IMG/VR virus record: IMGVR_UViG_3300048886_000464
Location: 1 to 35,519 of that record
Length of the DNA stretch: 35,519 nt
Source: a virus
Taxonomy: Duplodnaviria > Caudoviricetes
Direction: 5' to 3' (one strand)
The position numbers and the translations under genes were made by a program. Under the pieces are notes generated by a model. The model worked only from the letters and a program-made list of their open reading frames with translations, did not search any database and was not told where the DNA came from. Positions 2 to 19,578 of this stretch are shown here, piece by piece; the first letter of the stretch is position 1, and every line of letters starts with the position of its first letter.

Positions 2-3000
2 TTCATCTTGTTTCATTAGCCTTAGAAGAGCTTTTTCAATTGAGTTCTGTACGCCGCTACCTGGCCCCTTCCTGCCACGTAAAGCCTCTTGCATAGAAGG
101 GTCAAGGTCTGTTCGGCCCATTGGTTTCGTTCTCCACAATTCGGGAGGATGCCCCCCCAGTTCCTCGTCTGCAAACATTCGTGCTAGTTCTTCTATCTCA
201 TCTTTTTGGTCAGGAGATTTAATACTTCCAAACAATTCTTCAAGACGTTTTTGTTTTTCAGGCGATACTCCAGGGTCTATTTCTTGTTGGTCTTGCTGCT
301 CCCTTGTACGAGAATCTTGAGACGTTGTACCTTTATGTTGGCCTGTTGCACCCCCAGATGCCTCACCTATATGAGGCCATTCGTCATCCATATGGCCTGC
401 TACATATGTAGGGTCTTGTTCTGCATCACCAAGGTCAGGATGTCTGCCCAAATGATGTTGATAGGAAGTAAGTCTAGGCTGCTGATGGCGAGGTGTATAT
501 GTCTTTGGCTCTTGCATATTCTCAGGTTGTCTACGAATTCTGCTTAACCATAAATTATCCTTATGGGCAGGATGATATGGGGGAGGGGTAGCTTCAGCGG
601 GGTCAGGAGTCTCACCTCCTATAGTTCCATGCCTCCACTGGTATCCAGTACCCTCTCCATTCTCTTTTTCATCAGCCTTCATTAGCTTTAAAAGAGATTT
701 TTCTATACTATTTTGAACATGGTCTGAATCATACTGGTCAGTACCATGTTGTACTACACGTAGAGGAAATGGATTTCCTTCCGAATCAGGTACTGCCAGT
801 ATACCAGTAGGTTCTTCTCCTTCCTTTGGCTGTCTAAACTCAGCATAACTAGGAGCGTCATAGTCCCATACTTCCTCTGTACCCCCCTCAGGATGAGGAA
901 TCTCAGCCTTACGGCCTTCGGCGTCACCGCCCCCTGGATATCTAATACGTACTGTTGGTGGTTTCTTCTCGTCCTCCTCTGCCTTCATTAGCTTTAAAAG
1001 AGCTTTTTCAATATTATTTTGTATATTTGGCGCATCCAATTCTGGCCCTCTATGCTGTACCACATGCATCGGCCCACTTTCAGTTTCTAATGTCTCTATA
1101 TCATCCGCAGCATCCTCTGGGGTTGCTTGTCTATACTCTACCGTAAAGGGGGCTTTATATTCTTCAGTCCCTCTTAAACGATGTATTTGTTCTTCCCCGC
1201 CACCTTCTTCCACAGTCCCCTCTTTTTCCATATTAGCATTTCTTAAAGCTCTATGCTCAGGATACTTATCAACCTGTTCATCATACCGTATAGTATCACG
1301 CATAGCCCCAGCCATTGCACGCATTTCTTTAGGGGACATGTCCAATTTCAAAGGTGGTTTTTTACCTGTGCCCGACGCATACGCCATATCTTTGCCAGGG
1401 ACTTCAGGCATACGGAGATAGTCCTTCCCCTCATGCCCCCCTTCCAAAGCTGATAGCGAACCTTGATGCTCTTCACCCTTTAAATGTGCAACTCCCATTT
1501 CCCCTTCCCGTCCAGGCACCTCTGGCATGGGTTTCCATTTTGAAGGTTCTCTTTTCATCAGCTTTAGAAGAGCTTTTTCCACAGATAGTTCTGGAAACTC
1601 TCTTTTAAAAGCATCTTCACTTCCTCGCAACCTCTCTATCTCAGCCTTATGTTCAGCTATTTCTTGTTGATGGGCTGCTTCCTCTTTCTTTGTCCACTTG
1701 CTAAGTTTAGGGCCATTTGGGTCTTCAAACTTCCCTCTAGTAGATTCTGGATGGTCAAGAGGTAAACGGGCATTACGCATTCGAGAGTACATGCCTATTT
1801 TATGTTCTAGTTCTTCTATCTTATCGTCCTTAGTAGGTTGAGGTTGGTGTTCTTCAGCCTGTGCCCAATCATTATCGTGCCACTCTTTAAAATCAGAATG
1901 TGGATGATGGTCTGCGGTCACATTTTGCCCTAGCTTATATTTAGGAATCTGAGGAGATTCCGTTCCAGTCTCGGCAGCAAATCTGTCAAACTGATTTTGT
2001 AAAATATCATTCTTTTGTTGCCCTCGTCCTATTGCATTTCCTTTAGCATCCCCTGGTGGCTGGTACCAAGGCCAACTTCCTGGCGTAGTTCCATTGTGGT
2101 TGGGGTTATCTGGGTGGTAAAATGGTAGAGGTGTATCATCGCCTCCATCATCATCACCATATTCGCCTGTCATAAGTTTAAATAGGGAATTTTCAAGTGG
2201 GTTTTCTGGAAAGGTTCTTGCTATCCAATCCTCTTTACTTTCTCCTTCTTCTGGAGGTAGAATGGTTTCAGCATTTAATGGGCGAGTAGTCTTTATGCCT
2301 GGAGTTGAAGTAACTATTTCCCCAATCTCGCTCATTCGTTCATTTCTCGGAGAACCATGAGGTCTAGGTGAAGTACCTGGCGGTAACTTCTGTACTCTTG
2401 AAGCTATTTCCCCTAATTGTGGATTCATATGTTCACCAGGGGCATTGCGTCGATTAATTTGACGCTGTACATATATCTCCTTCTCCTCTTCAGGAGTTCT
2501 TTCACCTTCTTCCTTCATTATCTTTAGGAGAGAATTTTCAACAGAACCTTCTTCTTTACTTGGAAGAAAATAGTCTCTATAATGTCCTTGCCTTTTTATC
2601 CTATGCTCTGCCCCAAGAGAACTACCCCGTCTACCTATCCCAGGTATGTCCTTGTCAGGAAAAAGCTGATGCCCCAGACGAAAATGGTCAAGCCTCTGTT
2701 GGAATTCTTCTGGGGATATATTATTAATTACTTGTTGAAGGTTAGGTTGGGGCTTCATCATCATTTTCGCATTGCTATTGCTTGGTTCGTCCCCCATCCA
2801 TCTAAGAAATTCCTCTTGATGATGATTACTCAACGCATTATATTCCTCATAAGTCTTATCAGGTAAGGGAAAAGGAGCCAGCTGTTCCCCCGTGGAAGGG
2901 TCAAACTTTTGCTGCGGGTTCCTCCCATATCGTTGGGGTGTAGGTGGAGTACCTTCCTCATCTGCCTTATCTAAAAAAGGGCCATCATCCATGAGCTTTA

Positions 3001-3709
3001 GTAGGGAATTTTTCAACTCTTCCACATTTGGCCCATGTAATTTATGAGACTCTTCATAAGTTAATGGGTTATCCATTACATCAGCAGGAACACCAGTTAC
3101 TTTGGCTCCCTTCGCACTTCGTTGGGTAGATATAGGTTCTTCTTCCAATTGCTGAGGAGTACCCCGTACAGTTCCTTCAGCCCGTGGGCCTTCGTTCTGT
3201 CCCATACGATACTCACGTTCAACATCTTCCCATTCATCCTCACCCATACCGCCAGGATATTGTTCCTTAGCTATGCGTTTCATGGCATCGCCCGTCTTAT
3301 CCCCATCAGCAACTAAGATATTCTCTTCATCATGTTCCTTAACCTTATCATCAGACATGGCATTAAGGCGTTGGTCATCGACTTTCATTAGTTTTAGGAG
3401 AGACTCTTCAATTTTACTGTCTGAGTCTTGAGGATAACTTGGACTCCACACTCCCTTATCATCATCATCCCGCATCTGTTTCCATTCTTTTGCCGTAAAC
3501 CCACGTCTCAACGGAATGCCTGCGCCTTCAGGATGGTCTGGGCCAGTAACGGAAGGTTTGGGCAAGTGTCTAGAAGTGTCAAACGTTTCTCCTTGTTCAC
3601 TAAGGCCTTCACCCCCAACGTTCTCTTGTTTTTCCATTTCTTCTTTGAAAAAGTCTAGGGTTGACTTCCAATGTAAATTGTTATAAATTGGTTTCCCATA
3701 CTCTGGCAT
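2..3709 (-). CDS. Giant modular low-complexity protein, >1236 aa, 3'-truncated by the window edge; putative internal virion cargo polyprotein
   Basis: Absent from the ORF track, presumably because no stop lies in the window. Manual translation from ATG 3709 (AAGGAG RBS, 3 nt after the protease stop) gives MPEYGKPIYNNLHWKSTLDFFKEEMEKQEN... with no stop to position 2 (...VQNSIEKALLRLMKQDE). It has eight LLKLMK-type motifs, is P/G/E/H-rich, and I saw no Cys. Function is inferred. Confidence 0.9.
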   Translation of the reverse strand, partial: MPEYGKPIYNNLHWKSTLDFFKEEMEKQENVGGEGLSEQGETFDTSRHLPKPSVTGPDHPEGAGIPLRRGFTAKEWKQMRDDDDKGVWSPSYPQDSDSKIEESLLKLMKVDDQRLNAMSDDKVKEHDEENILVADGDKTGDAMKRIAKEQYPGGMGEDEWEDVEREYRMGQNEGPRAEGTVRGTPQQLEEEPISTQRSAKGAKVTGVPADVMDNPLTYEESHKLHGPNVEELKNSLLKLMDDGPFLDKADEEGTPPTPQRYGRNPQQKFDPSTGEQLAPFPLPDKTYEEYNALSNHHQEEFLRWMGDEPSNSNAKMMMKPQPNLQQVINNISPEEFQQRLDHFRLGHQLFPDKDIPGIGRRGSSLGAEHRIKRQGHYRDYFLPSKEEGSVENSLLKIMKEEGERTPEEEKEIYVQRQINRRNAPGEHMNPQLGEIASRVQKLPPGTSPRPHGSPRNERMSEIGEIVTSTPGIKTTRPLNAETILPPEEGESKEDWIARTFPENPLENSLFKLMTGEYGDDDGGDDTPLPFYHPDNPNHNGTTPGSWPWYQPPGDAKGNAIGRGQQKNDILQNQFDRFAAETGTESPQIPKYKLGQNVTADHHPHSDFKEWHDNDWAQAEEHQPQPTKDDKIEELEHKIGMYSRMRNARLPLDHPESTRGKFEDPNGPKLSKWTKKEEAAHQQEIAEHKAEIERLRGSEDAFKREFPELSVEKALLKLMKREPSKWKPMPEVPGREGEMGVAHLKGEEHQGSLSALEGGHEGKDYLRMPEVPGKDMAYASGTGKKPPLKLDMSPKEMRAMAGAMRDTIRYDEQVDKYPEHRALRNANMEKEGTVEEGGGEEQIHRLRGTEEYKAPFTVEYRQATPEDAADDIETLETESGPMHVVQHRGPELDAPNIQNNIEKALLKLMKAEEDEKKPPTVRIRYPGGGDAEGRKAEIPHPEGGTEEVWDYDAPSYAEFRQPKEGEEPTGILAVPDSEGNPFPLRVVQHGTDQYDSDHVQNSIEKSLLKLMKADEKENGEGTGYQWRHGTIGGETPDPAEATPPPYHPAHKDNLWLSRIRRQPENMQEPKTYTPRHQQPRLTSYQHHLGRHPDLGDAEQDPTYVAGHMDDEWPHIGEASGGATGQHKGTTSQDSRTREQQDQQEIDPGVSPEKQKRLEELFGSIKSPDQKDEIEELARMFADEELGGHPPELWRTKPMGRTDLDPSMQEALRGRKGPGSGVQNSIEKALLRLMKQDE
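5..3415 (-). repeat. Eight dispersed in-frame coding repeats, consensus approximately [IVL]E[KNE][SA]LL[KR]LMK
   Basis: Met codons of the motif start at + positions 14, 680, 986, 1556, 2171, 2516, 2990 and 3386. Copies at 675-703 and 981-1009 match at 28/29 nt (gccttcattagctttaaaagag[a/c]tttttc). Confidence 0.92.
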
Positions 3710-3712
3710 AAA

Positions 3713-6700
3713 TTAACTCCTTACGGGTAGGCTGAAAGCTTTAGCAAAGATTTTATGGACAGGCATAGAGTTTTCTATTGAATATTTAATGGGTTCTCGA
3801 TTTTGTGCCCATGCAGGCCGTCTAGCAGCACCCCTAGCCGTGGGTCTTCGGCCTCGCCCATAATCTCTTGGCCCCCTAACTCGCGCCCTTGCTTGTTCCC
3901 AAGCATCTGGAGTCGAGGCCTGTCCACCACCCATTAAACCTCTTTCAGCTTGTTCGGGTTCGCCTTGAAGTCTCTTGAGGTCAATATAATGCCCGTTGTC
4001 ATTAGAATTATGCAACGTCTCTACAATCTGTCTTAACGCTTGTGCCCCACTTCCTCCATGTCTCCCATGATGGGCACGAACCTTGTTGCTTAGATGTTCA
4101 CGCATCTCAGCCATACCGATAGGTTGATGCCATTCATCAGGATGGAAGTTCATATCTGTAAAGTGAGCGAGTCTATCCCCATCCTCATTTTGACTCAGAT
4201 GGTGTATCACACCCATCCAATCTCTAGGAGATAATTTACCGCCATCTTGTATATGGTCTAGCTTACTACGTACATTGTCATGACGTTCAGAAGAGGACAT
4301 ATTTCTGTGTTCATCGGGATGGTATTGAACTCCTTGTCCTACTCCTTGTTGCCGTTCCAGTTCAGCTGCCCTACCATAACTCTTTCCAGGCCGTTGACGC
4401 AAGCCTCCTTCGGAACGTATACCACCTGGGCGATAATATTCCCGTAAGTTTTCAAGGTCATCCACACCAGAAGATACGCCTCTAGCAATCTCTCCTCCGA
4501 TTTTGCCTGCACGTTCCCCCTGACGGCCTAACCACTGTCGAGCCATACGGCCTGCCTGTCCACCACGTTGTCGAACCATACGGCCTACCTGTCCACCACG
4601 TTCACGGGAACCAGCCCCTAGCCTTTCATCGGCATGAGCGGGAGCAGGACTTCGGAAACGTCCTCCCTCACCTCTTACGCCTGCCGCTTCCGCAGGGATA
4701 TCAGGTCTTACATCTTGTTGAGGATTCATAAACCCACGGAATGCACCACCAGCTGCTTCGGCCCCTCTCCTGGCACCACGGCCTATTCCACGGGCTGCTT
4801 GATTAGCCCAATCCGCGCCTTTATCGCCACGCATTTCTTCGTCTCTAAAGCCTCTACCCATTTCTCCAGCAACGCCTTGTACTTCCCCACGTAAATCTTG
4901 GAGATTTTGGTCAACTTCTCGTCCTGCCTTTCTCCCACCTCGGAACAATCGTCTCATTCCTTGATGGGCCTTTTCTCTAGGGGAAAGGTTCTCCATCCTA
5001 TCCCTTCGACGTTGAGATTGAACGCTGCCTACAATTTCACCAGCATCATATTCTCTACGCCCAGTTTGCTCTTCCCGCACTTCCCTTAGTGCGTCTGCCC
5101 TGTTTCTTGAGGCTGTATCGTCTCCCATTCGATAGCGTATTCCTGGCCCTTGTAATGGTTGGCGACGTGATTGAGTTTCTACAGGAGTTCCAGCTTGTCG
5201 GCCTCTGGCAACATGTTCATAATCATCAAACGTTGTTGTAACATTACCCTGTTCCTTCCGTCTGGCTGATTCTTTGGGGTTTACTCCCATATACCGTAAG
5301 TTATCCCGTCTTTGTTCTATTTTCTTTTGCGCTGCTGCTGCTTCTTGTTCTGGAACCTGTCTTGTCACTCTCTCAGAACGCTCCCTTGCCCTGGCAAGTC
5401 CTGGCCCACCTGTTCGTAGATTCTCTGCATGTGTTGCATCAGCACTTGCTTGCGCTGCCACACCTGAAGGTGAAGCACCAGGGAATGGGGCTTGGCTAAC
5501 ATTAGCTGCCCGTGTAGACGCTTCCGCAGATGGGTACCATCGAGAAGATGCCCCTGTAGTAGGCAAATCAACCTTAGGAGGATATTCCCGCCCTAATTGA
5601 GCTTGACCAAACATTCCTTCATTAGCCCTAGCTGCATCAGTTTGTGGTGGAACCCCTTTGCCAGCTGGGTCACCCATGCCCAACATCGTGGCGGGGGTTA
5701 CGCCCATACCCAAACCCGTATCCTTAGGTTTTTCACCCTCAGGGAATGCCTGTCCAGGGTTTGCCTTACCCATACGTTTAGGAGGAGCAGTAGCTTTCTG
5801 GATAATCCGTTCAAAGATGTCAATAGATTTATTAAAACTTACAATCTTATCGTTATCTAATTTATCCCCCAAATCTTGTCCAGCTTCATTCACAACCCAA
5901 GGTGGTATAATATTAATGGGCTTGCCATCATCATCAGTTTCAGTTTCAACTACTGGAATATATCGCATCGTCTCTAGAATAGGTTCGGAAGGGAAACCGT
6001 ACTCCTCAAGAAGGCGGTGGTGTTCGGCTTCCCTCCCAGCAAGATTTTCAAGGGTAGTGAAGGACTTTCCCTTGAGAGGGTCTTTCGATTCTTTTTCCAT
6101 CCAATTTAAAAAGGACTTTTTAAAATTTATTTTCCCATTGTCTTCAGACCGCATAATTACAATCTTCCTATGAATAGCTACAGGCAGTCGTTCTTCTTTC
6201 TCAGAATCCTTTTGGTCTTCATCAGCTTTTTCTGACTGAGGCAATTCCGCTTTTAAAATTTCAAAATTTGCAGCTTGGTTAACACCCTTTTCACAAACTG
6301 TAACTTCAGCTAATTCCATTTCGTCTACTTGCATATACGGAGTCATGCCTTTCTTCATGTTCTGTACTTTCGTGGCACTTCCAGCAATTGAATAACTCTT
6401 TAACAGACCATCATTAATCTGGTCAGCTACCTTTTTTGCAATTGCAGTATCATTACGCAGTTCACAAATAAAGAACAAACCCTTATCATCAACACCAGAT
6501 TTATAGATTTGTCCACCCTTGGAGATATACGCAGGCAATGCCCACCCTACCTGTACATCCGAATGAAGTACCATAACATTACGAGTACGTTCATTATCCA
6601 TAAACTTTTGGAAGGCTCTACCTAAAGCTCCAGCAGTAATTAAATGTCCTTCTCTATCAATCAATTCAACGGAAGCGGGGCCACCAATAACTAAAGGTTC

Positions 6701-6946
6701 TACCATATCCATTTTCTGAAGTTGTCCAGCTGCTTCTGCATATGTAGGACTATCAGGAAAGGCTCTATGTAGAGTCATCATTTCAGCTTTAGAAATAGTT
6801 CCAGCATGGTAGTTGCGTTCATATTCATCTAACGCACCCTTAATATCTTGTAAAGTGGTACGGCCTGGTTGAGACTCTTTTTCTAACCAGAAAATAGAAT
6901 CAGGAGCTTTGGCTGCTTGTGACGTAGGAATATAAGTACTGGTCAT
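3713..6946 (-). CDS. HK97-type prohead (maturation) protease with a long Arg/Gly-rich C-terminal extension
   Basis: Protease-domain motifs LVIGGPASVELIDREGHLI, MVLHSD (His), KSYSIAG (Ser) and LAEVTVCEKGVN. Lies in the head module. Start placed at ATG 6946 (TAATG coupling to the upstream stop) instead of the track's 6967. Confidence 0.85.
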   Translation of the reverse strand: MTSTYIPTSQAAKAPDSIFWLEKESQPGRTTLQDIKGALDEYERNYHAGTISKAEMMTLHRAFPDSPTYAEAAGQLQKMDMVEPLVIGGPASVELIDREGHLITAGALGRAFQKFMDNERTRNVMVLHSDVQVGWALPAYISKGGQIYKSGVDDKGLFFICELRNDTAIAKKVADQINDGLLKSYSIAGSATKVQNMKKGMTPYMQVDEMELAEVTVCEKGVNQAANFEILKAELPQSEKADEDQKDSEKEERLPVAIHRKIVIMRSEDNGKINFKKSFLNWMEKESKDPLKGKSFTTLENLAGREAEHHRLLEEYGFPSEPILETMRYIPVVETETDDDGKPINIIPPWVVNEAGQDLGDKLDNDKIVSFNKSIDIFERIIQKATAPPKRMGKANPGQAFPEGEKPKDTGLGMGVTPATMLGMGDPAGKGVPPQTDAARANEGMFGQAQLGREYPPKVDLPTTGASSRWYPSAEASTRAANVSQAPFPGASPSGVAAQASADATHAENLRTGGPGLARARERSERVTRQVPEQEAAAAQKKIEQRRDNLRYMGVNPKESARRKEQGNVTTTFDDYEHVARGRQAGTPVETQSRRQPLQGPGIRYRMGDDTASRNRADALREVREEQTGRREYDAGEIVGSVQSQRRRDRMENLSPREKAHQGMRRLFRGGRKAGREVDQNLQDLRGEVQGVAGEMGRGFRDEEMRGDKGADWANQAARGIGRGARRGAEAAGGAFRGFMNPQQDVRPDIPAEAAGVRGEGGRFRSPAPAHADERLGAGSRERGGQVGRMVRQRGGQAGRMARQWLGRQGERAGKIGGEIARGVSSGVDDLENLREYYRPGGIRSEGGLRQRPGKSYGRAAELERQQGVGQGVQYHPDEHRNMSSSERHDNVRSKLDHIQDGGKLSPRDWMGVIHHLSQNEDGDRLAHFTDMNFHPDEWHQPIGMAEMREHLSNKVRAHHGRHGGSGAQALRQIVETLHNSNDNGHYIDLKRLQGEPEQAERGLMGGGQASTPDAWEQARARVRGPRDYGRGRRPTARGAARRPAWAQNREPIKYSIENSMPVHKIFAKAFSLPVRS
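4536..4601. repeat. 33-bp tandem duplication (2 copies, 2 mismatches) encoding RGGQVGRMVRQ / RGGQAGRMARQ
   Basis: tgtcgagccatacggcctgcctgtccaccacgt followed directly by tgtcgaaccatacggcctacctgtccaccacgt. Confidence 0.9.
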
Positions 6947-7875: not shown

Positions 7876-7883
7876 ATAATCTC

Positions 7884-8153
7884 CTAATCAGTTGAGAACC
7901 AGTTCATTATACCAATAAGGCTTCCCAACACAAGTGCAGAATGAGCAAAGACTATGCCCATAATAAACACGGCTGATTTAGCCCCATACATACGAGTTCT
8001 CCAATGTTTTATTTCATCGAGTTCATTATTAAATTTATCTAAGCTATGGCAAATTGTTTCATTTAATTGAGTTTGCCCCTCTATGTATCTATCTAATCGC
8101 TCTGTATAGACTGCCAAGTTGACCTCTATAGAGGCCTCATTCAATACAGGCAT
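7884..8153 (-). CDS. Small membrane protein, holin/XhlA-like (coiled coil plus C-terminal hydrophobic segment)
   Basis: Heptad-like N-terminal half followed by AVFIMGIVFAHSALVLGSLIGIMNWF. Confidence 0.5.
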   Translation of the reverse strand: MPVLNEASIEVNLAVYTERLDRYIEGQTQLNETICHSLDKFNNELDEIKHWRTRMYGAKSAVFIMGIVFAHSALVLGSLIGIMNWFSTD

Positions 8154-9951: not shown

Positions 9952-10803
9952 TTACCCTATAAGTTCCCGTGGAACGCCGTCCGTCTCGCCATTCTCGATA
10001 GTTTCCTGCAACCGACGCAAATCCTGATAGGACAACTGCATCATCTGGTCAACGGTATCTGCCCCAGCAGCTTCTTTCTGAATGGGGGAAGTACCATCGG
10101 TACCCATGCTATCTTCATATCGAATAACGGTGGGACGGGTGAGAGAAGTCTCTTCACGGAAGCCCATCTTTCGGAGACGGCCTTCAGTTTCCTGTTGGAC
10201 AGCTTTCTGAATATTAGTGCTGCCTTTAAAGAGAGCCTTCAACTCGGTTATTTGCTTCTGCATCTGTTCTAATGCTGGATACTGTTCGGCATTCTCTACG
10301 GAATAACGTGCCATACCAAACCCTTCTTCCTCGTCCTTTTCATCGCCATTCTCTTCTTCTTCTTCTTCATCACCATTCTCTTCTTCCATGTCCTCGTACT
10401 CATCCTTGGCAAATTCGTCTTTCAACAAATTCAATTGCTTCTGCATAGCTTGAATAGTCGCTTGCTGAGACTTCATGTCATGCTTCGGTTCTTTAGCCTC
10501 TGCACCATCATCAGCATTCTTATCACTCTTACCACTACCAGAAGCCTTACGTTCACTGGCTTCCAACCCAGGCATACCTTGGTCAGCTTTAATCAAACCG
10601 TAAACTTCACCAGCAACGGCTTTAATGATTTCCTGCTTCTCAATAGCATCCTGTGCGTCTTCAGCCAACTCCATATCATAGTCTTCCTGTTTACTTATAC
10701 GGGAGTCCATTTTGTGCAAGACCTCCGCAACAGCAGCAAGAGCAAGATTAGAGCCTTCTATCTGTTTCTCCAACCTCTCCACAATGTCATTGTCTTGTGC
10801 CAT
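9952..10803 (-). CDS. Capsid scaffolding protein
   Basis: Acidic coiled-coil protein with an E/D run, directly upstream of the MCP. AGGAGG spacing favours ATG 10803 over 10809. Confidence 0.75.
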   Translation of the reverse strand: MAQDNDIVERLEKQIEGSNLALAAVAEVLHKMDSRISKQEDYDMELAEDAQDAIEKQEIIKAVAGEVYGLIKADQGMPGLEASERKASGSGKSDKNADDGAEAKEPKHDMKSQQATIQAMQKQLNLLKDEFAKDEYEDMEEENGDEEEEEENGDEKDEEEGFGMARYSVENAEQYPALEQMQKQITELKALFKGSTNIQKAVQQETEGRLRKMGFREETSLTRPTVIRYEDSMGTDGTSPIQKEAAGADTVDQMMQLSYQDLRRLQETIENGETDGVPRELIG

Positions 10804-10822
10804 GTGCATCCTCCTTCCTAGT

Positions 10823-11174: not shown

Positions 11175-11564
11175 CTAATTTAAGTAGTTTTGTAAACTAC
11201 TTGGATTACTTAAAGTACTAACAAACCCATTTAATGCTTCCTCTACAGAAAACCCCACATTGGGATTTTGTTCTTCTTGCGCTTCTATTCTTGCCAAGTC
11301 CATTGCTGTAGGCATGGCTTTGGCTCTTGAATGCTCTGATATCCATTTCCACCCCCCATCTTTTAATCTACGCCAATGTCCCGCTACTTCTTCCGTACCT
11401 GAGACAGCTTGTTCGGTACGCACCAAACCCGCATCTATCCCATCTACCGTAAGTTCTCCCTGCCCATTCATATTAAAGGCTCTATCAGGAAATCGTTGCT
11501 TTAAATAAGCTAAAAAAGCGGAATTAACTGCCCGTTCAATTTGTTTTACTACATCATCAGTCAT
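11175..11564 (-). CDS. Hypothetical protein with a VAGHWRR...WISEHSR hairpin motif
   Basis: 129 aa ORF filling the operon on the coding strand; no function recognised. Confidence 0.65.
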   Translation of the reverse strand: MTDDVVKQIERAVNSAFLAYLKQRFPDRAFNMNGQGELTVDGIDAGLVRTEQAVSGTEEVAGHWRRLKDGGWKWISEHSRAKAMPTAMDLARIEAQEEQNPNVGFSVEEALNGFVSTLSNPSSLQNYLN

Positions 11565-11570
11565 ACTGTA

Positions 11571-11804
11571 TTATACTTCCGCAATTCCTTCTAATGAAAT
11601 TTTTTGAATTTTCTTTTTAGTTATCCTTTCATTTGGCCCAAACCCCCAACGTTCCCTTAATCCTGGCCTACGCAATAATTCCTGTTGTAAGGCTTCCAAT
11701 TCCTCTAGGTCAAGCTCCCCACCATAACCAGGGGTGAGGAGCCGTATATCATATCCTGTACGGTCTGTGAATGTCTTCTTAGATGATTTAAACTTTGGTG
11801 GCAT
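11571..11804 (-). CDS. Small basic hypothetical protein
   Basis: ORF fills the gap between neighbours; start uncertain (11804 or the track's 11822). Confidence 0.55.
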   Translation of the reverse strand: MPPKFKSSKKTFTDRTGYDIRLLTPGYGGELDLEELEALQQELLRRPGLRERWGFGPNERITKKKIQKISLEGIAEV

Positions 11805-13107
11805 AATTCTTAGCCCACACATCGTTCATAGTACTATTAAACATACTAGGAGTATCATCAAACCTATTTAAATAAATCACTTCATGCCCCACGTTCCCAT
11901 AATATGGGTGCCAATAAGTAACAACTTGTTTAGGAGGAGTCATGGCTTGTACGCGCTGTAATGCAAATTCATCTCCTCCCTTCATGGTTCCACATATATA
12001 TGCTGAACCAGTACCTATATCCATGACATCTACACGATGAAAATGACCCATCATGACATCTGAAAAGTTTCCTGGCAAAACTCCATCATGTTCAACAATA
12101 GTACTTTCAAGGGCTTGTTTAAACTGTATCACCCCACGCATATTCCCAATCATTCGACTAATAGATGCAGAACTCCCCCCACCTGATATCGCATCACCAT
12201 GAAACATAAGAACATTTTTCCCTGCTATATCTACTATATGAGCAAAAGACTTAGGTATGTCAAATTGAATGTTCTTCTGATTAGCACAGAAAGCTGCCAT
12301 CCATTGATAAGCCAAGTAGTCCCAATCCATATATTTGTCCTTCATGGGAGGCTTCCGTGTCATTCTTCCATGATTGCCTACCACACACGGAACTTTAATG
12401 GTTTTAAAATGGGGGGCCAGAAACATCAAGGCTTGCGAAATAGCACTAGCTACATGCATCATTTGCATCATGCAATTATCAAGGTTAGTACGGGACAGTT
12501 CTTCATGTATATCCCCACTAATCATATCCCCTAACATAGGAACCATCAATTCATCAATGGTACAAATATTACGTCTGTACGTAGCCAAGTTCAACACTTG
12601 ATTAGCCCACCCCGATAGCCGCCTATTAAAAACATCATAATCATACGAATTCATTGCCATCATTTGGGGCGAAAACACTTGTTCCCCCACATGCGTATCA
12701 GTGAGGACAGCAACCATGACTTGAGGTTCGGAGGATTTTCCTTTAGCAGGGGGCGGTTTAATAGGCACAGCATCAAAAGTTGGTGCATAAGTTTGAATAG
12801 CTTCTACAATTAATTCCTTCTTTGCATCGGATGCAATTAGTTGATTATATAGTTTTTTATAGTAAGCTAGTTCAGATTTATACGTAGCTACTTTCTTATC
12901 AAGTTTAGTTCTATCCTCTATCGACTCCAAGAGTTCGTCTTGGTCTACCTCTTCTTCGTTGAAAACCTCTCTGTCGTACCAACGTTGGACGGTTGTTCGA
13001 TGAATCGTTATCCCGTATTCGTCCTCTATCCACTTCGATATCCCCGTCCATGTCTCCCCTTCTTGCTTTCTTTTTATTATCCCTAATCTTGCCTGTTCTG
13101 GAATCAT
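11788..13107 (-). CDS. Calcineurin-like metallophosphoesterase with an N-terminal HTH and coiled coil
   Basis: All five motifs present: TDTH, LGDM, VGNHG, FHGD and GHFH. N-terminal WTGISKWIEDEYGITIHRTTVQRW is HTH-like. AGGAGG precedes ATG 13107. Confidence 0.85.
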   Translation of the reverse strand: MIPEQARLGIIKRKQEGETWTGISKWIEDEYGITIHRTTVQRWYDREVFNEEEVDQDELLESIEDRTKLDKKVATYKSELAYYKKLYNQLIASDAKKELIVEAIQTYAPTFDAVPIKPPPAKGKSSEPQVMVAVLTDTHVGEQVFSPQMMAMNSYDYDVFNRRLSGWANQVLNLATYRRNICTIDELMVPMLGDMISGDIHEELSRTNLDNCMMQMMHVASAISQALMFLAPHFKTIKVPCVVGNHGRMTRKPPMKDKYMDWDYLAYQWMAAFCANQKNIQFDIPKSFAHIVDIAGKNVLMFHGDAISGGGSSASISRMIGNMRGVIQFKQALESTIVEHDGVLPGNFSDVMMGHFHRVDVMDIGTGSAYICGTMKGGDEFALQRVQAMTPPKQVVTYWHPYYGNVGHEVIYLNRFDDTPSMFNSTMNDVWAKNYATKV

Positions 13108-13228
13108 AAGCCCTCCTGATTGTAAGTACAATTATTGTTCCACACATACGGCAATTCAAATCTTTATCTTCATTGACATACATGCTTCCCGCACATTTAG
13201 GACATATATTATCACTTACTTGAAGCAT
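12911..13228 (-). CDS. Small zinc-ribbon protein with a basic tail overlapping the phosphoesterase gene
   Basis: CPKC-x13-CRMC. Start uncertain (ATG 13228; the track gives TTG 13234). Confidence 0.65.
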   Translation of the reverse strand: MLQVSDNICPKCAGSMYVNEDKDLNCRMCGTIIVLTIRRAYDSRTGKIRDNKKKARRGDMDGDIEVDRGRIRDNDSSNNRPTLVRQRGFQRRRGRPRRTLGVDRG

Positions 13229-16200
13229 AGTCAACCTTTAGCAAAGCAGTAAGCAACGGAGTCGCATCTCCTGACTCTTCTAATTCCTTCCGCATCGCCT
13301 CTAATTTGGCTACTTTTTCAGCTTCAGGAACCCAGTTTAAACCCTCCTTATTTTCATCAATCTCTTCCTCATCATGACTTTTATCTTCCTCGCCTCCTCT
13401 AGCTAATGAGTCTTGTTCATAAGTATTCATACCAAAAGAAGACATTTGCATCGTAGCCCCAGAAGGATATCCTCCCATACCCGCAGCAGCCATAGCTCCT
13501 GCTGGTTGTTCGTGTCCCGTATCCTCTTCTTTATTGTCATACTTTTTAACTCTACGTTGCATGTCATTCTCCTTAACTACTGCATCCTTTGCAGGAGGTT
13601 CATTTGGATTATCTTTCGTCCGTTCAATAAATTTCTGTTGGGGATGCGGCCCATCCGCAGGCTGATTCTCTGTAGCAGATATCATAGTAGTGCCTTCCCC
13701 AGCTGATTTTTGCACATAAGACTTATGCTGCCCCCAGTCTGGGGCACGTCCCGTTTTAGCATTCCCAACTGAATTAATATTGGCATGTCGTGGATAAGTT
13801 GCTGTAATACCAGTTTCCATTCCTCCAGCAATGCCCATATTAACATGAGGCTCATTATTTTCAGCAGTTTTTAATGCATCCTCTAATGGACGGCTTGTTT
13901 TTTTATGGTTGAGGGTATCCTCTGCCATATCTTTCTTCCAATTTAACCTCATAGGCCCAGTAGCCTGATTATTCCAGGCATGGGCTGTTGGAGCATTTCC
14001 TGTCATATCATCATCAAGTCCTGGGGCAAGACCTTTTTTACCAGCTTTAGAAAGAACGGCTTTTAACTTCTGCTCGGCTTCTTCTCTCCCCCCAACAGTA
14101 GGTTTAGAAAGAGCATCAAACCCTTCACGGGTTATTTCTTCATCCCCGCCCCAACCACCTATCGGCTTCCTTCCCCCATGTTCTAATTTATTATGCAGAC
14201 GAGTGTTTATCTCACCATAATCCCAACCAGGGCCAAAAACACTAAAGGCTGAAGGACGTTGTTCACACCACGGACAATAAAGCTTACCATCTGTATTAAG
14301 ATTTTCACGGGGATTTAACCCCGCATCCCGAAATTCTCTTTCAGCCGTTTCCTTGCTCTTCGTGGCTTTCTGCCTTGCCCTCACATCTCGCATTAATTCT
14401 TTCTTATATGGCCTCTTTTCTCCAGAGGATAGCCGAATGGCTTTAGCCACAGGAGAACCATCATATAGATACTGAATTAATCTGTCAACCCCACTCTTTT
14501 TCTCTTTCCCCAATAATTTTTTACGCTTATGTTCCTGTTTATTGTGACGTTTTTCATGTTTTCGTCTAGTTCTATCCCCCCCATAGGTGGGAGTAAATAT
14601 ACCCGCATTTGTGGATGTAAAGACAGTTCCATTAAGGCCATTAAATGCTCCCCCATCTCCTCCACTCTCCCCTTCTTTGCGTATAAATTTTTGTAGGTTC
14701 TCAATTGCTTTCCTGGGGTTGTCTCTAGCCCACTCAGCGGGGCTATAGGGTTTCTCACTCTGTCGATTACCCCAATAATTTTGTTGGTCAAGCATATCTT
14801 GATAATTGCTATAAGGATTATCTGGATGCTTAGGTGTCACTTCCTGTCCTTCCTCATCAATCTCCATGCCTGGACGAGGTGTAGATGACCCACCATACAT
14901 ACCAATTCTATCTTCCCTCTCTCTCCTTTCTTTTGGCATTTCAGGTTGCGAGATGGCATTCCACTCTTGAGGAGTGGGGCCATAATCATCTGCAAACGAA
15001 GAGAGGGGAGCTTGCATACCCCTACCTGTATACCTATCTAACCCCCCTGGTTGTTTTCTCCAATCGGCTCCATACGCATTAGGACTTAAATCGGTATCCT
15101 CCAATCTATCGGGCCGTGCATAAGGACGAGCTTGACGGCCTGCCTGAGGAATGTTTCCTTTAGGGGTTTCCAAAGTCTCTCTATTAAAATGAACATTTTC
15201 ATCTCTTTCCAGTTGATTTAATTCTTCTGGTGTGAACCTAGAAACATCCTTACGGAGAGATTGTTCAATTGCAAAATACTGTTGTATATCTGGGTCAGTT
15301 TCAAAAGAACCTGTGGGTTTATAACTAGGAGACTCAAAAGCTACTTTCTTAAACATCCGCTGTATACCCTCTTGATGTTGAGATGGTACTTTTGAGAGCA
15401 TTGACTCCGTATGGTCTGTTAAGAAGTCATGTATGTTCATTTCTTTTCTAGTTGTGTCTAAATATTCTTGGCTGGGCCTTTGACCCTTGGGTGCATTACG
15501 AGGAGGTATGTTAGGTCTAGCTCTTCCTAAAGGAAAGGCATCATCATAATCCATATCACGAACAGCATCCCCACGTCTCTGCAACATATCGGAACGATGT
15601 ACTTGTTTTAAGCCATCCGCATGTTGGTTAGCAGTCAGAGGAACATCTCTATGAATTTTATCTACATAATTATATGCATGGTAATGCACAGAAGGGACTC
15701 TCTTGCCCCCTTTTTCCTCAGGCTCTAAAAAGAGGGGAGCATTGTCATGCCCAACAGGAAGAAATAAGTCAGGATGTGTATCTTCCCATTCAGTGTGGGG
15801 CCGATTCTTATCTACTTGACGTTGTATTTCATCCCCCATATGCCTACGAAAACCTTCTATACCATCATCTTCTTCAGCTTTTTGTACAAATTTCATTAGT
15901 TTTGACACAGCCTTTTCCTTATCATATAAATCTGGGAATCGACGTTCAAAGGCATCTTTAGTGGGTTTAGGAGCATACCTACTACGATTTTGAGATGGGT
16001 AATCTCTAATGGTTTCTGCTTGTGAAGATAATTGTTCATCTGGGTCTTTATAAGATTCTCTTCTACCCCTCATAGACGGATACCTATGTAATGTGGTACT
16101 ACCTGAGGTTCCTGAAGAACGTGGTGTCATATTAGGCATCGTATCCCTATACCATCTTCCATAACGGTCTTTAGGAAATGCATCCCCTCTGTTGTAAGGA

Positions 16201-17540
16201 ATACCTCTAGGCAATAACATTTCTTCCGTTGAAACACCGCCCTCACCTTCTCCTTCAGGAGGGAGGGGGGCAGATTCTGCAAAGGATGTTTCCCAACTTC
16301 CAGGGGCTTGAAGCTTATTATAACCACTGACTTCATCTGGATGATATGCAGGACTTACCTGACGAATACGACGATGTAAATCATCTGCCATTCCAGCAGC
16401 ATCATGAGATAGTGTAGGATGCATATTAGCCCGAAGAAGATTTTTATGGAAATGTTCTACTGACATTCTTTCTCCCATCCCCTTCCCTCCATGCTCTTCT
16501 TTATATGCATTAGGTAATTGAGGCTCTTCTAGATATTGTTGCGTACTTCCTCGCCCATAGTCAGGATTAGGGACATATCGTCTATAATTAATAGCATCAG
16601 GATGGTTTAAATAATCTTCCCCAAAATTTAAAATATTATGTACTGTAGCAATAGCTTGATGTCCTGCTAAATGCATTCCAATATCTGGGTGGGTATTGCT
16701 ACCGCCAGTTCTACCAGGGTGACCACCCATATCATCCTGTAGCAATCTTATATACGAATGGGCAGCATTAAGAGGGCTTAAAAAACTTTCGGTATGCATA
16801 GGACTATAGCTATCGTAATACTCATTGGGCTGCATTTTCCTAGCTATTTCTCCGACTTTCTGCCCATCTTTACTTTCGGGCGAAGGAAGCCCTGCGGATT
16901 GCTGTATATTGAAACCCTTGGGATAAGACTCCTGGGGGTCAGGGTAGCCAATCTTTTGTATCTGAACAAAATTCATTAGCTTCTGAACAGATTTATATTG
17001 AGGGAAGTCTTCGGGCACATCCTCTACATCATGGGGATTATATATCCCCTGTTTCATCATTCGCTCAGTAACTCGTTTTAAGTTATTTAAATCGCTTGTA
17101 GCTGGATGCGCTCCCTCACCTACATCTGCGTACATATTTTGATATCTATCCCAAGCGGCACCACCTATCTTTCCAGGCTTCTGCTGGTCATTATGATAGT
17201 CTACAAAGTCTTCTAAATAGTTGCGATGGAAATCCCAAAGCCCTATCTGTGCATCTGGATTATATGGCTTATTGGTTTGACGTGTTCGTTTCCCACTCCG
17301 CTCCCAATTGTTATAAGGATGCATTTGATGTTCTCTATCCCACCAGTTAATGACATGGATTCGCTTTCGCTCACCCCCAAAATCCTCATTTGATAATTGT
17401 TCTTGAGCAAGTTGGTCAATAGCTTTATGCCCTAAATGATGTTCTCTAAGAGTAGCAAGCCCATGAGGAGAGTTTTCTAAAATCTTTTTATATCTCTCAT
17501 ATTCCCCATATTCATCTTGTTTATGAAGGTTCATTTTCAT
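13212..17540 (-). CDS. Giant low-complexity protein (~1442 aa), putative internal head/cargo polyprotein
   Basis: Long ORF directly after the portal; GAGG RBS favours ATG 17540 (MKMNLHKQDE). Repeated helix-K motifs: SVQKLMNFVQIQK, AVSKLMKFVQKAEE, AIENLQKFIRKEGE. Function is inferred. Confidence 0.8.
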   Translation of the reverse strand: MKMNLHKQDEYGEYERYKKILENSPHGLATLREHHLGHKAIDQLAQEQLSNEDFGGERKRIHVINWWDREHQMHPYNNWERSGKRTRQTNKPYNPDAQIGLWDFHRNYLEDFVDYHNDQQKPGKIGGAAWDRYQNMYADVGEGAHPATSDLNNLKRVTERMMKQGIYNPHDVEDVPEDFPQYKSVQKLMNFVQIQKIGYPDPQESYPKGFNIQQSAGLPSPESKDGQKVGEIARKMQPNEYYDSYSPMHTESFLSPLNAAHSYIRLLQDDMGGHPGRTGGSNTHPDIGMHLAGHQAIATVHNILNFGEDYLNHPDAINYRRYVPNPDYGRGSTQQYLEEPQLPNAYKEEHGGKGMGERMSVEHFHKNLLRANMHPTLSHDAAGMADDLHRRIRQVSPAYHPDEVSGYNKLQAPGSWETSFAESAPLPPEGEGEGGVSTEEMLLPRGIPYNRGDAFPKDRYGRWYRDTMPNMTPRSSGTSGSTTLHRYPSMRGRRESYKDPDEQLSSQAETIRDYPSQNRSRYAPKPTKDAFERRFPDLYDKEKAVSKLMKFVQKAEEDDGIEGFRRHMGDEIQRQVDKNRPHTEWEDTHPDLFLPVGHDNAPLFLEPEEKGGKRVPSVHYHAYNYVDKIHRDVPLTANQHADGLKQVHRSDMLQRRGDAVRDMDYDDAFPLGRARPNIPPRNAPKGQRPSQEYLDTTRKEMNIHDFLTDHTESMLSKVPSQHQEGIQRMFKKVAFESPSYKPTGSFETDPDIQQYFAIEQSLRKDVSRFTPEELNQLERDENVHFNRETLETPKGNIPQAGRQARPYARPDRLEDTDLSPNAYGADWRKQPGGLDRYTGRGMQAPLSSFADDYGPTPQEWNAISQPEMPKERREREDRIGMYGGSSTPRPGMEIDEEGQEVTPKHPDNPYSNYQDMLDQQNYWGNRQSEKPYSPAEWARDNPRKAIENLQKFIRKEGESGGDGGAFNGLNGTVFTSTNAGIFTPTYGGDRTRRKHEKRHNKQEHKRKKLLGKEKKSGVDRLIQYLYDGSPVAKAIRLSSGEKRPYKKELMRDVRARQKATKSKETAEREFRDAGLNPRENLNTDGKLYCPWCEQRPSAFSVFGPGWDYGEINTRLHNKLEHGGRKPIGGWGGDEEITREGFDALSKPTVGGREEAEQKLKAVLSKAGKKGLAPGLDDDMTGNAPTAHAWNNQATGPMRLNWKKDMAEDTLNHKKTSRPLEDALKTAENNEPHVNMGIAGGMETGITATYPRHANINSVGNAKTGRAPDWGQHKSYVQKSAGEGTTMISATENQPADGPHPQQKFIERTKDNPNEPPAKDAVVKENDMQRRVKKYDNKEEDTGHEQPAGAMAAAGMGGYPSGATMQMSSFGMNTYEQDSLARGGEEDKSHDEEEIDENKEGLNWVPEAEKVAKLEAMRKELEESGDATPLLTALLKVDYASSK

Positions 17541-19578
17541 TCTCTTCCTCATAATCCCATTCACCCTGCTTATTGTTCCCTGTGGGAGAATAATTTGCGC
17601 TGGGGTTTTTAGAGGGGCCGTCAGCTGCTTTATATGTTGGCCCCATACCAAAGGTAGCTTTCTGAACATGCGTTACACCCGTAGAATGTAGGTCTGCAAT
17701 ATAATCTACTCCATCTTGACTAAACCACATCTTCTTCCCGTCATCAGATACCTGTTTAATCAGAGGCGTTAGATATCCTTTAGATATAATGCCCTCTACC
17801 CAATTTTTAGGTGTTTTTGTGGGGTCATCATCAGATTTTCTAGCATCCGCATACTCATCCAACTCCTCAATACTCCTTTCCTTCTTGCTACCCATATCAT
17901 TATAGAGGTAATTTTTATCTTGCGCCCCTTTCAAAGGAGCAAAATTCATGTTCTGCATGGGCATAGGGGGCAAAGGCTGCGCTCCCTCCCCCTCACCCCC
18001 ACCAGGGGCAGCACCTACCCGTCCAGGGGCTTGATTTACGCCCTCAGGAGCAGCAGGAGGCTGTCCTGGCTGTTGTCCTGCTTGAGCCTGCTGTTCCATC
18101 ATTTGTTGCTGCATCTGCATTTGTTCCATCTGTTGTTTTTGCTGGTCTATAGCCATATCCATCTGTTCACCCTGTTTCTCCATCATATTAACAGGTTTAC
18201 CAAATATCATGAACTCAGCATCTTCTACAGGTACGCCATCATCCTTTAACCTAACTTCAAAACCTAAGGCAATGAACTGATTTGCAATTTGAGCCTTCTG
18301 TTGCGAGAAGCTAATACGAGTAGCTTCCGCTTTTTCCTCAGGATTGGGCAGTTTAAGCCCCCAATCAGTTACTCCAAAAGCTTCTAACAATTGCGGGAAT
18401 ATTTTCTCATGATATAACCTTTGGTCACCTTCAACTACCCTACTCATAACAACTAATTGCTGAGTTTGAGTAGATAATCCACCAAAAGCTTCAGGTGCCC
18501 CCTGCCAAGCAGGAGTTACGCCCCACATAGCTGCTATCCGTTCCCGTATTTCACCCCTCACGGGCAAATAATCCATTTCATTTAGTGTATGGAATAACCG
18601 TACCATATCTACCCTACCTCTATTATTACGAGAGGATACCGCTACCATAGGTATATAGTTAGGGTCAAGGCGTGTCTGTGCAGCAATTTGTTGACGTTCC
18701 CTTCGCAAAGATTCAGGGTCATCTGTAAATACCATCATCATGGACGCTGGCATTTTCCGTTCAAAAAAGTATCTATATAGGTTTTTATCCATTCCAATCA
18801 ATGTCAAAGCTTTTTCAAAAATTGTTAGGATTGGACTCCATCCATATGTCTCACTAGGAGAGAATTTAGACAAGTGTATAACTTCCCCATCTAAAAGGAA
18901 AAGATGTTGATTACGATGGTAATATTTATACATTACCGCCTGTAATGGTATATCACAGTCTTTTTGTTCACAATCACCAGGGTCTTCCTTTACCTCGTCT
19001 CGATGAATAGGACAAAGAAAATGAGCATTTTTTGGTAACCCCGCAGCATCCAAATCAAATTCAACTAAAGCAGGATTTAAACGACGAATTTCATTTACCT
19101 TTGACCGCATCCCACCATCATCTGTTTTCTTATATTCTTTAACCAGATACAAAAAAGCGTCATCAATAGCATTTAAATCAAAATGGAATTGACGCATTAC
19201 TTCTTCTAGAGATTGGTCAAAAATGTTACAGTCATCAAGGAATTTTTGTAGTCTAACTCGTTGTTCTTGGTCAGGCTTTTCAACTAGCGGTACCCACTCA
19301 AGTCCCCGCCTAAATACTTCATTCGTTATGTGTTGTAGAGGAGAACGTACTTCTTCAATTGAATATGCCAACATCTGTAAGTCCATTACAAGTTGTTGGC
19401 GATAAGCCATTTGATGGCGTACCCATGTATTAACTACATGGTCTAGACCAATAGTGGGAGCACGGCCTGTCTCGCCTCCATTAGACTTCATTAAATCTAA
19501 GAAATTTATCTGTTCATTTAGATTAATGACAGTTTGAGCTAATTTAGGTACCTCAGGTAGATATTCCGATAGTCTCAT
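17521..19578 (-). CDS. Portal protein
   Basis: EVIHLSKFSPSETYGWSPILT, NLYRYFFERKMPASMM and IRERIAAMWGVTPAWQG are HK97-family portal motifs; position downstream of the terminase. Confidence 0.88.
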   Translation of the reverse strand: MRLSEYLPEVPKLAQTVINLNEQINFLDLMKSNGGETGRAPTIGLDHVVNTWVRHQMAYRQQLVMDLQMLAYSIEEVRSPLQHITNEVFRRGLEWVPLVEKPDQEQRVRLQKFLDDCNIFDQSLEEVMRQFHFDLNAIDDAFLYLVKEYKKTDDGGMRSKVNEIRRLNPALVEFDLDAAGLPKNAHFLCPIHRDEVKEDPGDCEQKDCDIPLQAVMYKYYHRNQHLFLLDGEVIHLSKFSPSETYGWSPILTIFEKALTLIGMDKNLYRYFFERKMPASMMMVFTDDPESLRRERQQIAAQTRLDPNYIPMVAVSSRNNRGRVDMVRLFHTLNEMDYLPVRGEIRERIAAMWGVTPAWQGAPEAFGGLSTQTQQLVVMSRVVEGDQRLYHEKIFPQLLEAFGVTDWGLKLPNPEEKAEATRISFSQQKAQIANQFIALGFEVRLKDDGVPVEDAEFMIFGKPVNMMEKQGEQMDMAIDQQKQQMEQMQMQQQMMEQQAQAGQQPGQPPAAPEGVNQAPGRVGAAPGGGEGEGAQPLPPMPMQNMNFAPLKGAQDKNYLYNDMGSKKERSIEELDEYADARKSDDDPTKTPKNWVEGIISKGYLTPLIKQVSDDGKKMWFSQDGVDYIADLHSTGVTHVQKATFGMGPTYKAADGPSKNPSANYSPTGNNKQGEWDYEEENENEPS

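What the first reader, a model, noticed from the sequence alone, without database searches (positions are those of the whole stretch)
2..19578. Shared helix-Lys processing/targeting code across the whole head module
Seen: the pattern hydrophobic-x(0-1)-K followed by A/S/E/Q/D, often ending an amphipathic helix, recurs in six head-module proteins. Examples: MCP (GFMKK-AG), portal (FLDLMK-SN, HVQK-AT), scaffold (EIIK-AV, GLIK-AD, NIQK-AV, PIQK-EA), protease (FWLEK-ES, FEILK-AE, KSFLNWMEK-ES, KSIDIFERIIQK-AT) and both giant proteins. The two giant ORFs plus the protease extension cover roughly 10 kb of the window. Inference: one Lys-specific protease matures the shell and releases a large library of cargo peptides, analogous to Glu-specific T4 gp21 or phiKZ gp175 but organised as polyproteins. 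The short form of the pattern is degenerate, so enrichment must be tested.
Basis: partly seen in the sequence, partly recalled or inferred. Interest (0 to 1): 0.85.

Follow-up and report, generated by a model that had tools for sequence, protein, structure and literature searches.

The report
Lysine-bounded swappable phage head cassettes
Two giant head-region proteins of this marine phage are strings of modules that related phages delete, reorder and swap at a hydrophobic-x-lysine signal, which is likely the cutting site of the phage's own capsid protease, so the modules are likely packed into the capsid and cut apart there.

Summary
The motif as written is not enriched over non-head proteins (15.1 vs 12.3 per 1000 aa, P=0.29), and most core sites are not amphipathic. 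A sharper rule holds: [LIMVF]-x-K|small residue. Giant A carries 8 copies of an amphipathic (S/A)LLKLMK helix. Among relatives, 13 of 21 module-swap junctions lie within 2 residues of the Lys rule (1.7 expected; Arg control 2), and contigs from other samples delete whole Lys-to-Lys modules. The rule transfers to the cultured halovirus HVTV-1, the closest cultured relative (odds ratio 2.9, P=2.5e-6). Lys specificity is not new: HK97, the family prototype, cuts F-N-K103|S104. Relatives carry topoisomerase IB, CCA-adding enzyme or a metallopeptidase in the same gene slot, but this window's modules match nothing and look disordered. Cutting, packaging and ejection are untested. The scan noted similar Lys- and Glu-bounded cassette proteins in other genomes, including a relative of this family. 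Verdict: new variant of known head-cargo processing.

The parts
2..3709 (-). Giant A: cassette polyprotein, 1236 aa in the window, open at the window edge; about 1450 aa in full
   Evidence: ORF; no Pfam/PHROG/NCBIfam hit; P0130 overlaps it at 100% and continues 214 aa
3383..3415 (-). Giant A helix cassette 1, ends K109
   Evidence: joint 1220/3384
2987..3019 (-). Giant A helix cassette 2, ends D241 (Lys in relatives P0131, P0132)
2513..2545 (-). Giant A helix cassette 3, ends K399
2168..2200 (-). Giant A helix cassette 4, ends T514 (Lys in relative P0131)
   Evidence: joint 1567/2184
1553..1585 (-). Giant A helix cassette 5, ends K719
1223..1231 (-). Giant A module border M-E-K829 without the long helix
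   Evidence: scored by the core-trained matrix, then met by a contig joint and by P0134
983..1015 (-). Giant A helix cassette 6, ends K909
   Evidence: joint 674/981
677..709 (-). Giant A helix cassette 7, ends K1011
11..43 (-). Giant A helix cassette 8, ends K1233
3713..6946 (-). Prohead protease with a long C-terminal extension (ORF call reaches a TTG at 6967)
   Evidence: PF04586 31.5 bits, cut-off 21; PHROG head maturation protease
6251..6703 (-). Catalytic domain, residues 89-239, with invariant His135 (6563-6565) and Ser193 (6389-6391), closed by I-L-K239
6878..6886 (-). Protease site L-E-K30
   Evidence: Lys in 74 of 74 homologues, P3 Leu or Ile in all
6092..6100 (-). Protease site M-E-K292
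   Evidence: conservation 1.00, n=73
3740..5794 (-). Gly/Arg-rich protease extension between K391 and K1076, with one weak internal match (K401) and no helix cassettes
   Evidence: long form (860 aa or more) only at 75% or more MCP identity
8559..9923 (-). Major capsid protein; site M-K-K29 at 9837-9845
   Evidence: PF17236; Lys in 56 of 58 homologues
9952..10809 (-). Probable scaffold protein; sites K63 (10621-10629), K74 (10588-10596), K185 (10255-10263), K202 (10204-10212), K245 (10075-10083)
   Evidence: scaffold role inferred from position before the MCP and acidic composition, no family hit; Lys conservation 0.92-1.00
13212..17540 (-). Giant B: cassette polyprotein (likely start near 17540; the ORF call from 17669 overlaps the portal). 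Borders K50, K239, K597, K807, K998, K1076, K1208, K1321
   Evidence: complete homologues 198-1954 aa
14676..15250 (-). Giant B module 808-998, deleted exactly in two other runs
   Evidence: joint skipping 573 nt in X4 and X9, one study
14043..14440 (-). Giant B module 1077-1208, an insert between two K|A sites, absent from most relatives
15249..15878 (-). Giant B module 598-807; a homologue is the first module of a giant-A-type protein (P0129)
17521..19578 (-). Portal protein; sites L-M-K31 (19486-19494) and V-Q-K640 (17659-17667)
   Evidence: PHROG 18178 E 9e-40; Lys conservation 0.91 each
17524..17856 (-). Portal C-terminal domain, which in some relatives sits on the downstream enzyme protein instead

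Best explanation
The phage's HK97-family head protease likely cuts after [LIMVF]-x-Lys in capsid protein, portal, scaffold and itself, and the two giant proteins, whose modules are swapped and deleted among relatives at this same signal, are likely drawn into the prohead as polyproteins and cut into separate modules, some of which would stay in the virion as cargo. Shown: the sites, their conservation, the repeated helix in giant A, and module exchange in register with the Lys. Inferred from family knowledge (about 0.9): Lys-specific cutting of the core proteins. Inferred (about 0.75): the giants are packaged and cut at the same sites, with the amphipathic helix before the Lys acting as a prohead-binding tag like the T4 capsid targeting sequence. 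Inferred (about 0.55): released modules are retained and act in the host cell. Recombination between cassette DNA (58-91% identical) would let a module bring its own tag and cut site wherever it lands.
For: Protease: PF04586 above cut-off, herpes/T4-gp21 protease fold, His and Ser invariant; its K239 aligns with the Lys closing the HK97 gp4 domain (weak: E 0.0012, probability 20%) and model confidence drops just after it. HK97 cuts K103/S104 (PMC10275583), read as F-N-K|S. Motif-blind conserved Lys fit the rule 12 of 13 in head, 1 of 11 in non-head proteins. A matrix trained on core sites scores 16 of 216 giant/extension Lys vs 7 of 337 non-head Lys at threshold 3 (P=0.004; P=0.04, 0.08, 0.39 at thresholds 4, 5, 6). 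Junctions: 17 of 25 within 2 aa; with stricter collapsing 13 of 21 vs 1.7 expected, Arg 2 of 21; 17 of 33 and 7 of 12 under other settings. Contig joints: 8 of 15 join site to site, 6 distinct events. P1 is Lys in 37 of 41 distinct helix copies when P1 is left free. Held-out HVTV-1: 41 of 204 head Lys vs 71 of 881 others, OR 2.9, P=2.5e-6, Arg OR 1.0; a mobile leader follows Lys in 7 of 7 copies and an ADP-ribosyltransferase module changes partner at that Lys between HVTV-1 and HCTV-5. The slot after the portal holds topoisomerase IB (7 of 63 proteins scanned), CCA-adding enzyme head domain (3) or M91 peptidase (1) in relatives. Third-position bias in DNA-defined blocks shows the giants are coding and constrained.
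Against: No cut, packaging or ejection has been measured. The short pattern as written is not enriched over non-head proteins and the refined rule is not enriched per Lys in the giants alone (P=0.59). Two of 8 window cassettes end in Asp or Thr, and P1' after the helix is mixed (A9 G8 E6 V5 Q3 D3 R1 I1 F1). Border K239 of giant B is followed by Ile. 5 of 15 contig joints are not at sites and 2 have one end only. Junctions are not independent events, and recombination between repeats alone would put many of them near cassettes. All window modules have negative FoldIndex, like the scaffold, and none matches Pfam, PHROG, NCBIfam or the atlas. The rule also matches inside folded enzyme domains of relatives, so it cannot by itself predict cuts. 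Most core sites are not amphipathic.
Confidence: 0.55

Rival explanations
1. The Lys code and packaging are real, but the window's modules are accessory scaffold or filler: disordered chains that are cut up and leave the head, affecting only assembly.
For: Negative FoldIndex for every module, as for the scaffold; no enzyme hits; SPN3US propeptides are mostly lost from heads (PMC10052503, passages); T4 gp22, gp67 and gp68 are degraded (PMC9958956, passages).
Against: Length varies from about 500 to 1954 aa at near-identical MCP; modules of 100-360 aa mostly lack internal sites; some keep recognisable sequence across distant copies (28% for module 598-807); relatives place whole enzymes in the slot.
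Confidence: 0.22
2. The giant-protein helix is only a binding or oligomerisation repeat; the giants are not cut, and junctions fall there because the repeats recombine.
For: Cassette DNA is 58-91% identical; two window copies lack the Lys; P1' is loose.
Against: Swaps also fall exactly at Lys where the upstream sequences are unrelated (giant B K50, K807, K1076/K1208; giant A K829); shared blocks stop at the Lys rather than mid-helix; Lys in 37 of 41 copies.
Confidence: 0.1
3. The modules are near-neutral passengers: inserts are tolerated at protease sites because maturation cuts them away, and they accumulate and shuffle with little benefit.
For: Expansion is confined to one clade; constraint is weaker than in the MCP (third-position share of mismatches 42-55% vs 66%); giant A is split in at least one relative (L016).
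Against: About 10 kb is kept in frame in a genome of roughly 80-87 kb in relatives; dN/dS 0.05-0.35 in 12 blocks (blocks picked by protein identity, so biased low).
Confidence: 0.13

Closest known systems
HK97 gp4 prohead protease (Pfam Peptidase_S78) and its K103/S104 cut
   Same: Same Pfam family; Lys at P1 with a hydrophobic P3 and small P1'; a Lys site closes the catalytic domain in both.
   Different: HK97's scaffold is fused to the capsid protein and no cargo polyproteins are in its head module; here the scaffold is separate, the protease gene lies after the MCP and carries a 700-aa extension.
T4 capsid targeting sequence with gp21 processing (IPI-III, Alt); SPN3US gp245 and phiKZ gp175
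   Same: Short tag plus head-protease site on non-essential head proteins; same protease fold.
   Different: T4's tag is one N-terminal 10-mer and SPN3US cuts after A-x-Glu, removing terminal propeptides; here Lys, and up to 8 or more internal tags in series that delimit exchangeable modules.
Phage polyvalent proteins (Iyer et al. 2017, PMC5512222)
   Same: Large, variable multi-module proteins encoded beside portal and head genes, predicted to be packaged; relatives carry nucleic-acid enzymes and a metallopeptidase.
   Different: In the passages I saw, processing is ascribed to built-in metallopeptidase domains, not to prohead-protease sites between domains; the window's modules match no known domain.
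Druskaviridae head module (HVTV-1 gp112-120, HCTV-1, HCTV-5, HCTV-16)
   Same: Closest cultured protease, MCP and portal (27-31% identity); same Lys rule and Lys-bounded module swaps.
   Different: Archaeal hosts; modules include zeta-toxin-like kinase and ADP-ribosyltransferase domains and a MuF gene, none found in the window.

Membership tests
HK97-type prohead protease (Peptidase_S78) | Pfam PF04586 above the curated cut-off | tested here: met
   31.5 bits vs 21
HK97-type prohead protease (Peptidase_S78) | NCBIfam equivalog TIGR01543 cut-off | tested here: not met
   34.1 bits vs 59, E 2.7e-8: a divergent member
HK97-type prohead protease (Peptidase_S78) | Herpes-assemblin/T4 gp21 fold with conserved His and Ser | tested here: met
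   pLDDT 86 model matches KSHV protease (E 8e-4) and gp21; His 69 of 69, Ser 67 of 67 non-gap rows; that these two are the catalytic pair is inferred
HK97-type prohead protease (Peptidase_S78) | Cuts after Lys | not testable with these tools
   only conservation and homology
T4-type capsid targeting sequence | Single N-terminal tag of about 10 residues | tested here: not met
   8 internal copies in giant A
T4-type capsid targeting sequence | Tag ends at a head-protease site | tested here: inconclusive
   ends in a Lys fitting the core rule in 37 of 41 copies; cut not shown
T4-type capsid targeting sequence | Sufficient to target a foreign protein into the head | not testable with these tools
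   needs a reporter fusion
Phage polyvalent proteins | Two or more recognisable enzymatic or effector domains in one chain | tested here: not met
   no hits for the window's giants; met for relatives L040, L046 and G004
Phage polyvalent proteins | Encoded among portal-terminase head genes, with variable architecture among relatives | tested here: met
Phage polyvalent proteins | Packaged and injected | not testable with these tools
   no virion proteome available

The most novel reading that the evidence does not exclude
The cassette is a self-contained 'load me and cut me here' unit that works as a protein-level exon boundary. It lets an abundant marine phage clade assemble a combinatorial payload of about 20 mostly disordered, unknown effectors per genome, reshuffled by recombination between cassettes and ejected into the host, with cultured haloviruses using the same grammar for kinase and ADP-ribosyltransferase payloads.
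Probability: 0.3. Interest if true: 0.82.

Novelty: new variant of a known kind. Interest (0 to 1): 0.6.

Why it matters
How phages choose and load internal proteins is clear only for T4's single tag. Here comparative data mark the unit of exchange to the residue, which predicts mature N-termini for about 30 sites. The same rule appears in cultured haloviruses, so it can be tested now, and it offers an explanation for their zeta-toxin and ADP-ribosyltransferase genes, whose role a 2014 review calls unknown (zeta toxin, PMC4284463). If the modules are ejected, they are a pool of new effectors and a natural scheme for loading several proteins into a capsid from one gene.

Tried and rejected
Short pattern as written: not enriched over non-head proteins; rejected as the signal. 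A shared amphipathic helix at all sites: rejected for core proteins. Lys-x-Ala, noted by the scan in other phages: P2' here is mixed, a different rule. Single-sequence fold of protease residues 8-396: pLDDT 32, unusable. Protease domain plus cassette complex: no answer, median score 0.02, mark 0.32, controls not run; not used for or against. Sequence search of solved structures with the protease profile (0 hits) and the MCP (chance hits only). Atlas searches for giant B 238-470 and the portal C-domain: no usable hit. Homologue searches for modules found only close relatives: 2, 4 and 7 proteins. Degenerate DNA scan for the cassette: 25 stretches, 4 of them on two contigs already known from this family; the other 21 were not examined. 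A profile of an N-terminal Ala-Pro-x-x-Gly leader from three relatives found 5 copies, none in the window or the haloviruses. No RNA holder listed. PF14550 not found in the genome. D3 was fetched but its protease is annotated ClpP-like, so it was not used. PHROG scan of 13 long ORFs of complete relative G003 did not settle tail type. Pietilä 2013 (HVTV-1 virion) and Duda 2013 (HK97 protease) are not held, so published N-termini there remain unchecked.
Full report
Setting. The window is a linear virus record, estimated 46% complete, with all genes of interest on the minus strand: terminase, NrdJ, portal, giant B, an exonuclease-like gene, scaffold, MCP, three small genes, protease and giant A. 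The family is common in viral metagenomes: 440 stretches encode an MCP relative (the best 80 were fetched). One complete relative is 85 kb. The runs holding most of the window are hydrothermal-vent and marine metagenomes. Two of three genome-collection hits lie in a Dehalococcoidia bin and one in a Nitrosopelagicus bin; PolA, RecA and a sigma-70 factor suggest a bacterial host, but the host is not shown.

The pattern as written. All 11 quoted sites exist, but hydrophobic-x(0-1)-K-[ASEQD] occurs 79 times in 5229 head residues and 51 times in 4149 residues of 11 non-head proteins (P=0.29). Against shuffles the head set is z=4.8 and the non-head set z=1.6.

The real rule. In alignments of 61-77 de-duplicated homologues, the quoted core Lys are 91-100% conserved except K391. 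Their contexts give hydrophobic P3, free P2, Lys P1 and small P1' (Ala most often). Choosing Lys only by invariance in variable surroundings, 12 of 13 in head proteins fit [LIMVF]-x-K|[ASQEGD] and 1 of 11 in non-head proteins; for Arg, 1 of 5 and 0 of 15. The rule was derived from overlapping sites, so this is partly circular. The independent test is HVTV-1, whose protease, MCP and portal are the closest cultured matches: 41 of 204 Lys in its 8 head-module proteins fit, against 71 of 881 in 84 other proteins (I left out the shortest ORFs and the first 2.5 kb of the 174 features), OR 2.9, P=2.5e-6; Arg OR 1.0.

The protease. It passes PF04586, misses the TIGR01543 cut-off, folds with pLDDT 86 and matches herpes proteases and T4 gp21 and viral prohead proteases. 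His135 and Ser193 are invariant. Profile comparison with HK97 gp4 is weak (E 0.0012) but aligns K239 with the Lys that closes the HK97 domain. HK97's capsid protein is cut at K103/S104 (PMC10275583, passages), which reads F-N-K|S. Lys specificity with this rule is thus the family prototype's, not a new chemistry.

Giant A. Eight copies of an 11-residue helix ending (S/A)L(L/F)(K/R)(L/I)M-K/D/T are spaced 102-222 aa apart; none appeared in 2000 shuffles. They are amphipathic (73rd-98th percentile), unlike most core sites. Six of eight end in Lys; across the window and relatives 37 of 41 distinct copies do, with a loose P1'. Relatives carry the same modules in other orders: P0131 has 434-517 before 141-243, and P0134 joins 832-915 to 93-148. 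P0130 shows the protein continues to about 1450 aa.

Giant B. Complete homologues range from 198 to 1954 aa. L003 is 99% identical from residue 324 to exactly K597, then continues with the module that follows K807 in the window. Over 82 de-duplicated giant A/B proteins, 17 of 25 swap junctions lie within 2 aa of the rule (2.1 expected, maximum 9 in 1000 draws). Collapsing left and right ends gives 13 of 21 (1.7 expected), Arg 2, Glu 2, other residues 0-2; two other settings give 17 of 33 and 7 of 12. Junctions share history and are not independent.

Contigs of other runs. Of 15 joints listed at 88% likeness, 8 join site to site, as 6 events: giant A modules 910-1011 (306 nt), 515-719 (615 nt net) and 110-829 (2163 nt); giant B 808-998 (573 nt, two runs of one study), 1077-1208 (three contigs) and a jump back over 240-597. 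Two have one end at a site and five do not join sites. At this likeness the contigs may be relatives rather than the same virus, and short sides are weak. K829 had been scored by the core-trained matrix beforehand.

What the modules are. In the window: unknown. No Pfam, PHROG, NCBIfam or atlas match, all with negative FoldIndex, yet constrained: mismatches by codon position in DNA-defined blocks are 684/468/1381 (giant B), 34/24/58 (giant A), 109/102/154 (protease extension), 5598/2874/16336 (MCP). A homologue of giant B 598-807 opens a giant-A-type protein, so the two giants are one system. In more distant relatives the slot after the portal holds topoisomerase IB (7 of 63 proteins scanned; 63 were chosen from 139 candidates, mostly the longest), a CCA-adding enzyme head domain (3) or an M91 peptidase (1), with rule-fitting Lys at the domain ends but also inside. 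Eight of 69 complete portals lack the C-terminal domain, which 12 non-portal ORFs carry, some of them contig-edge fragments. In haloviruses a mobile leader follows Lys in 7 of 7 copies found by pattern, and the ADP-ribosyltransferase module sits at the end of gp115 in HVTV-1 but behind 84 residues of a gp113 homologue in HCTV-5. The protease extension is different: Gly/Arg-rich, without cassettes, bounded by K391 and K1076, and long only in the clade with 75% or more MCP identity.

Mechanism. Likely: the protease trims MCP (28 residues), portal and itself and digests the scaffold at the Lys rule; the giants bind the prohead interior through the helices and are cut into modules; recombination at the cassettes moves tag, site and module together. 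Whether the window's modules are kept and ejected or discarded is open; enzymes in the same slot of relatives tip me towards cargo.

Literature. Ten searches listed no paper describing head proteins built from modules bounded and exchanged at prohead-protease sites; the library lacks most subscription journals. I saw only keyword passages of PMC10052503, PMC5512222, PMC12749128, PMC10713586, PMC3601020, PMC12810830, PMC9958956, PMC4284463, PMC8651126, PMC7824862 and PMC10275583, no supplements. Pietilä 2013 and Duda 2013 were not available. FoldIndex, hydropathy scales and the reading of phiKZ gp175 as Glu-specific are recalled, not from a call. Earlier scan notes describe similar systems in other genomes; they are leads, not support.

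Verdict. Known protease chemistry and known idea of head cargo, with a serial, swappable cassette architecture that I did not find in print, and a cultured test system. New variant of a known kind; interest 0.6.

Noticed in passing
window 17524-17856; L196, L197, L204, G004: The portal C-terminal domain is missing from 8 of 69 complete portals and sits at the C-end of the next gene, behind topoisomerase IB and/or a CCA-adding enzyme, as if enzymes were inserted into the portal gene and it then split.
   Followed up: partly
L275:16223-20164 (HVTV-1 gp115); L283:3223-4191 (HCTV-5 gp109): Halovirus zeta-toxin-like kinase and ADP-ribosyltransferase domains are separated by Lys-ending helices that resemble giant B's cassettes, and the transferase module changes partner at that Lys.
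   Followed up: partly
window 11788-13107: A conserved exonuclease-like gene (PHROG 284, E 8e-45) lies inside the head module; some relatives have a different small gene there (L030, L031, G001).
   Followed up: no
L146, L159, L088, L136, P0129: Short hydrophobic Ala/Gly-rich stretches begin right after Lys in several relatives' head proteins; they look like membrane-active hairpins.
   Followed up: no
window 3740-5794: The protease extension is Gly/Arg-rich in close relatives (Arg 7-15%) and might bind DNA inside the head.
   Followed up: partly
window 14046-14441: The inserted giant B module 1077-1208 contains a Cys-x2-Cys pair.
   Followed up: no
L016:12157-13412 vs L081: Giant A is split in L016 but intact in the closely similar L081; assembly error or real break not resolved.
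   Followed up: no
L227 (G001:C55): An 87-kb member of this phage family is binned in a Nitrosopelagicus genome although it carries bacterial-type PolA, RecA and sigma factor; possibly mis-binned.
   Followed up: no
L074:2917-4059; L105:4515-5135; L067:2079-3386: Relatives carry a Bmp-family ABC substrate-binding protein, a Mom-family protein and a DUF6321 domain in or next to the head module.
   Followed up: no
window 19582-20007: The small gene before the portal has one invariant Lys that fits the rule (K119); it may be another head protein.
   Followed up: no
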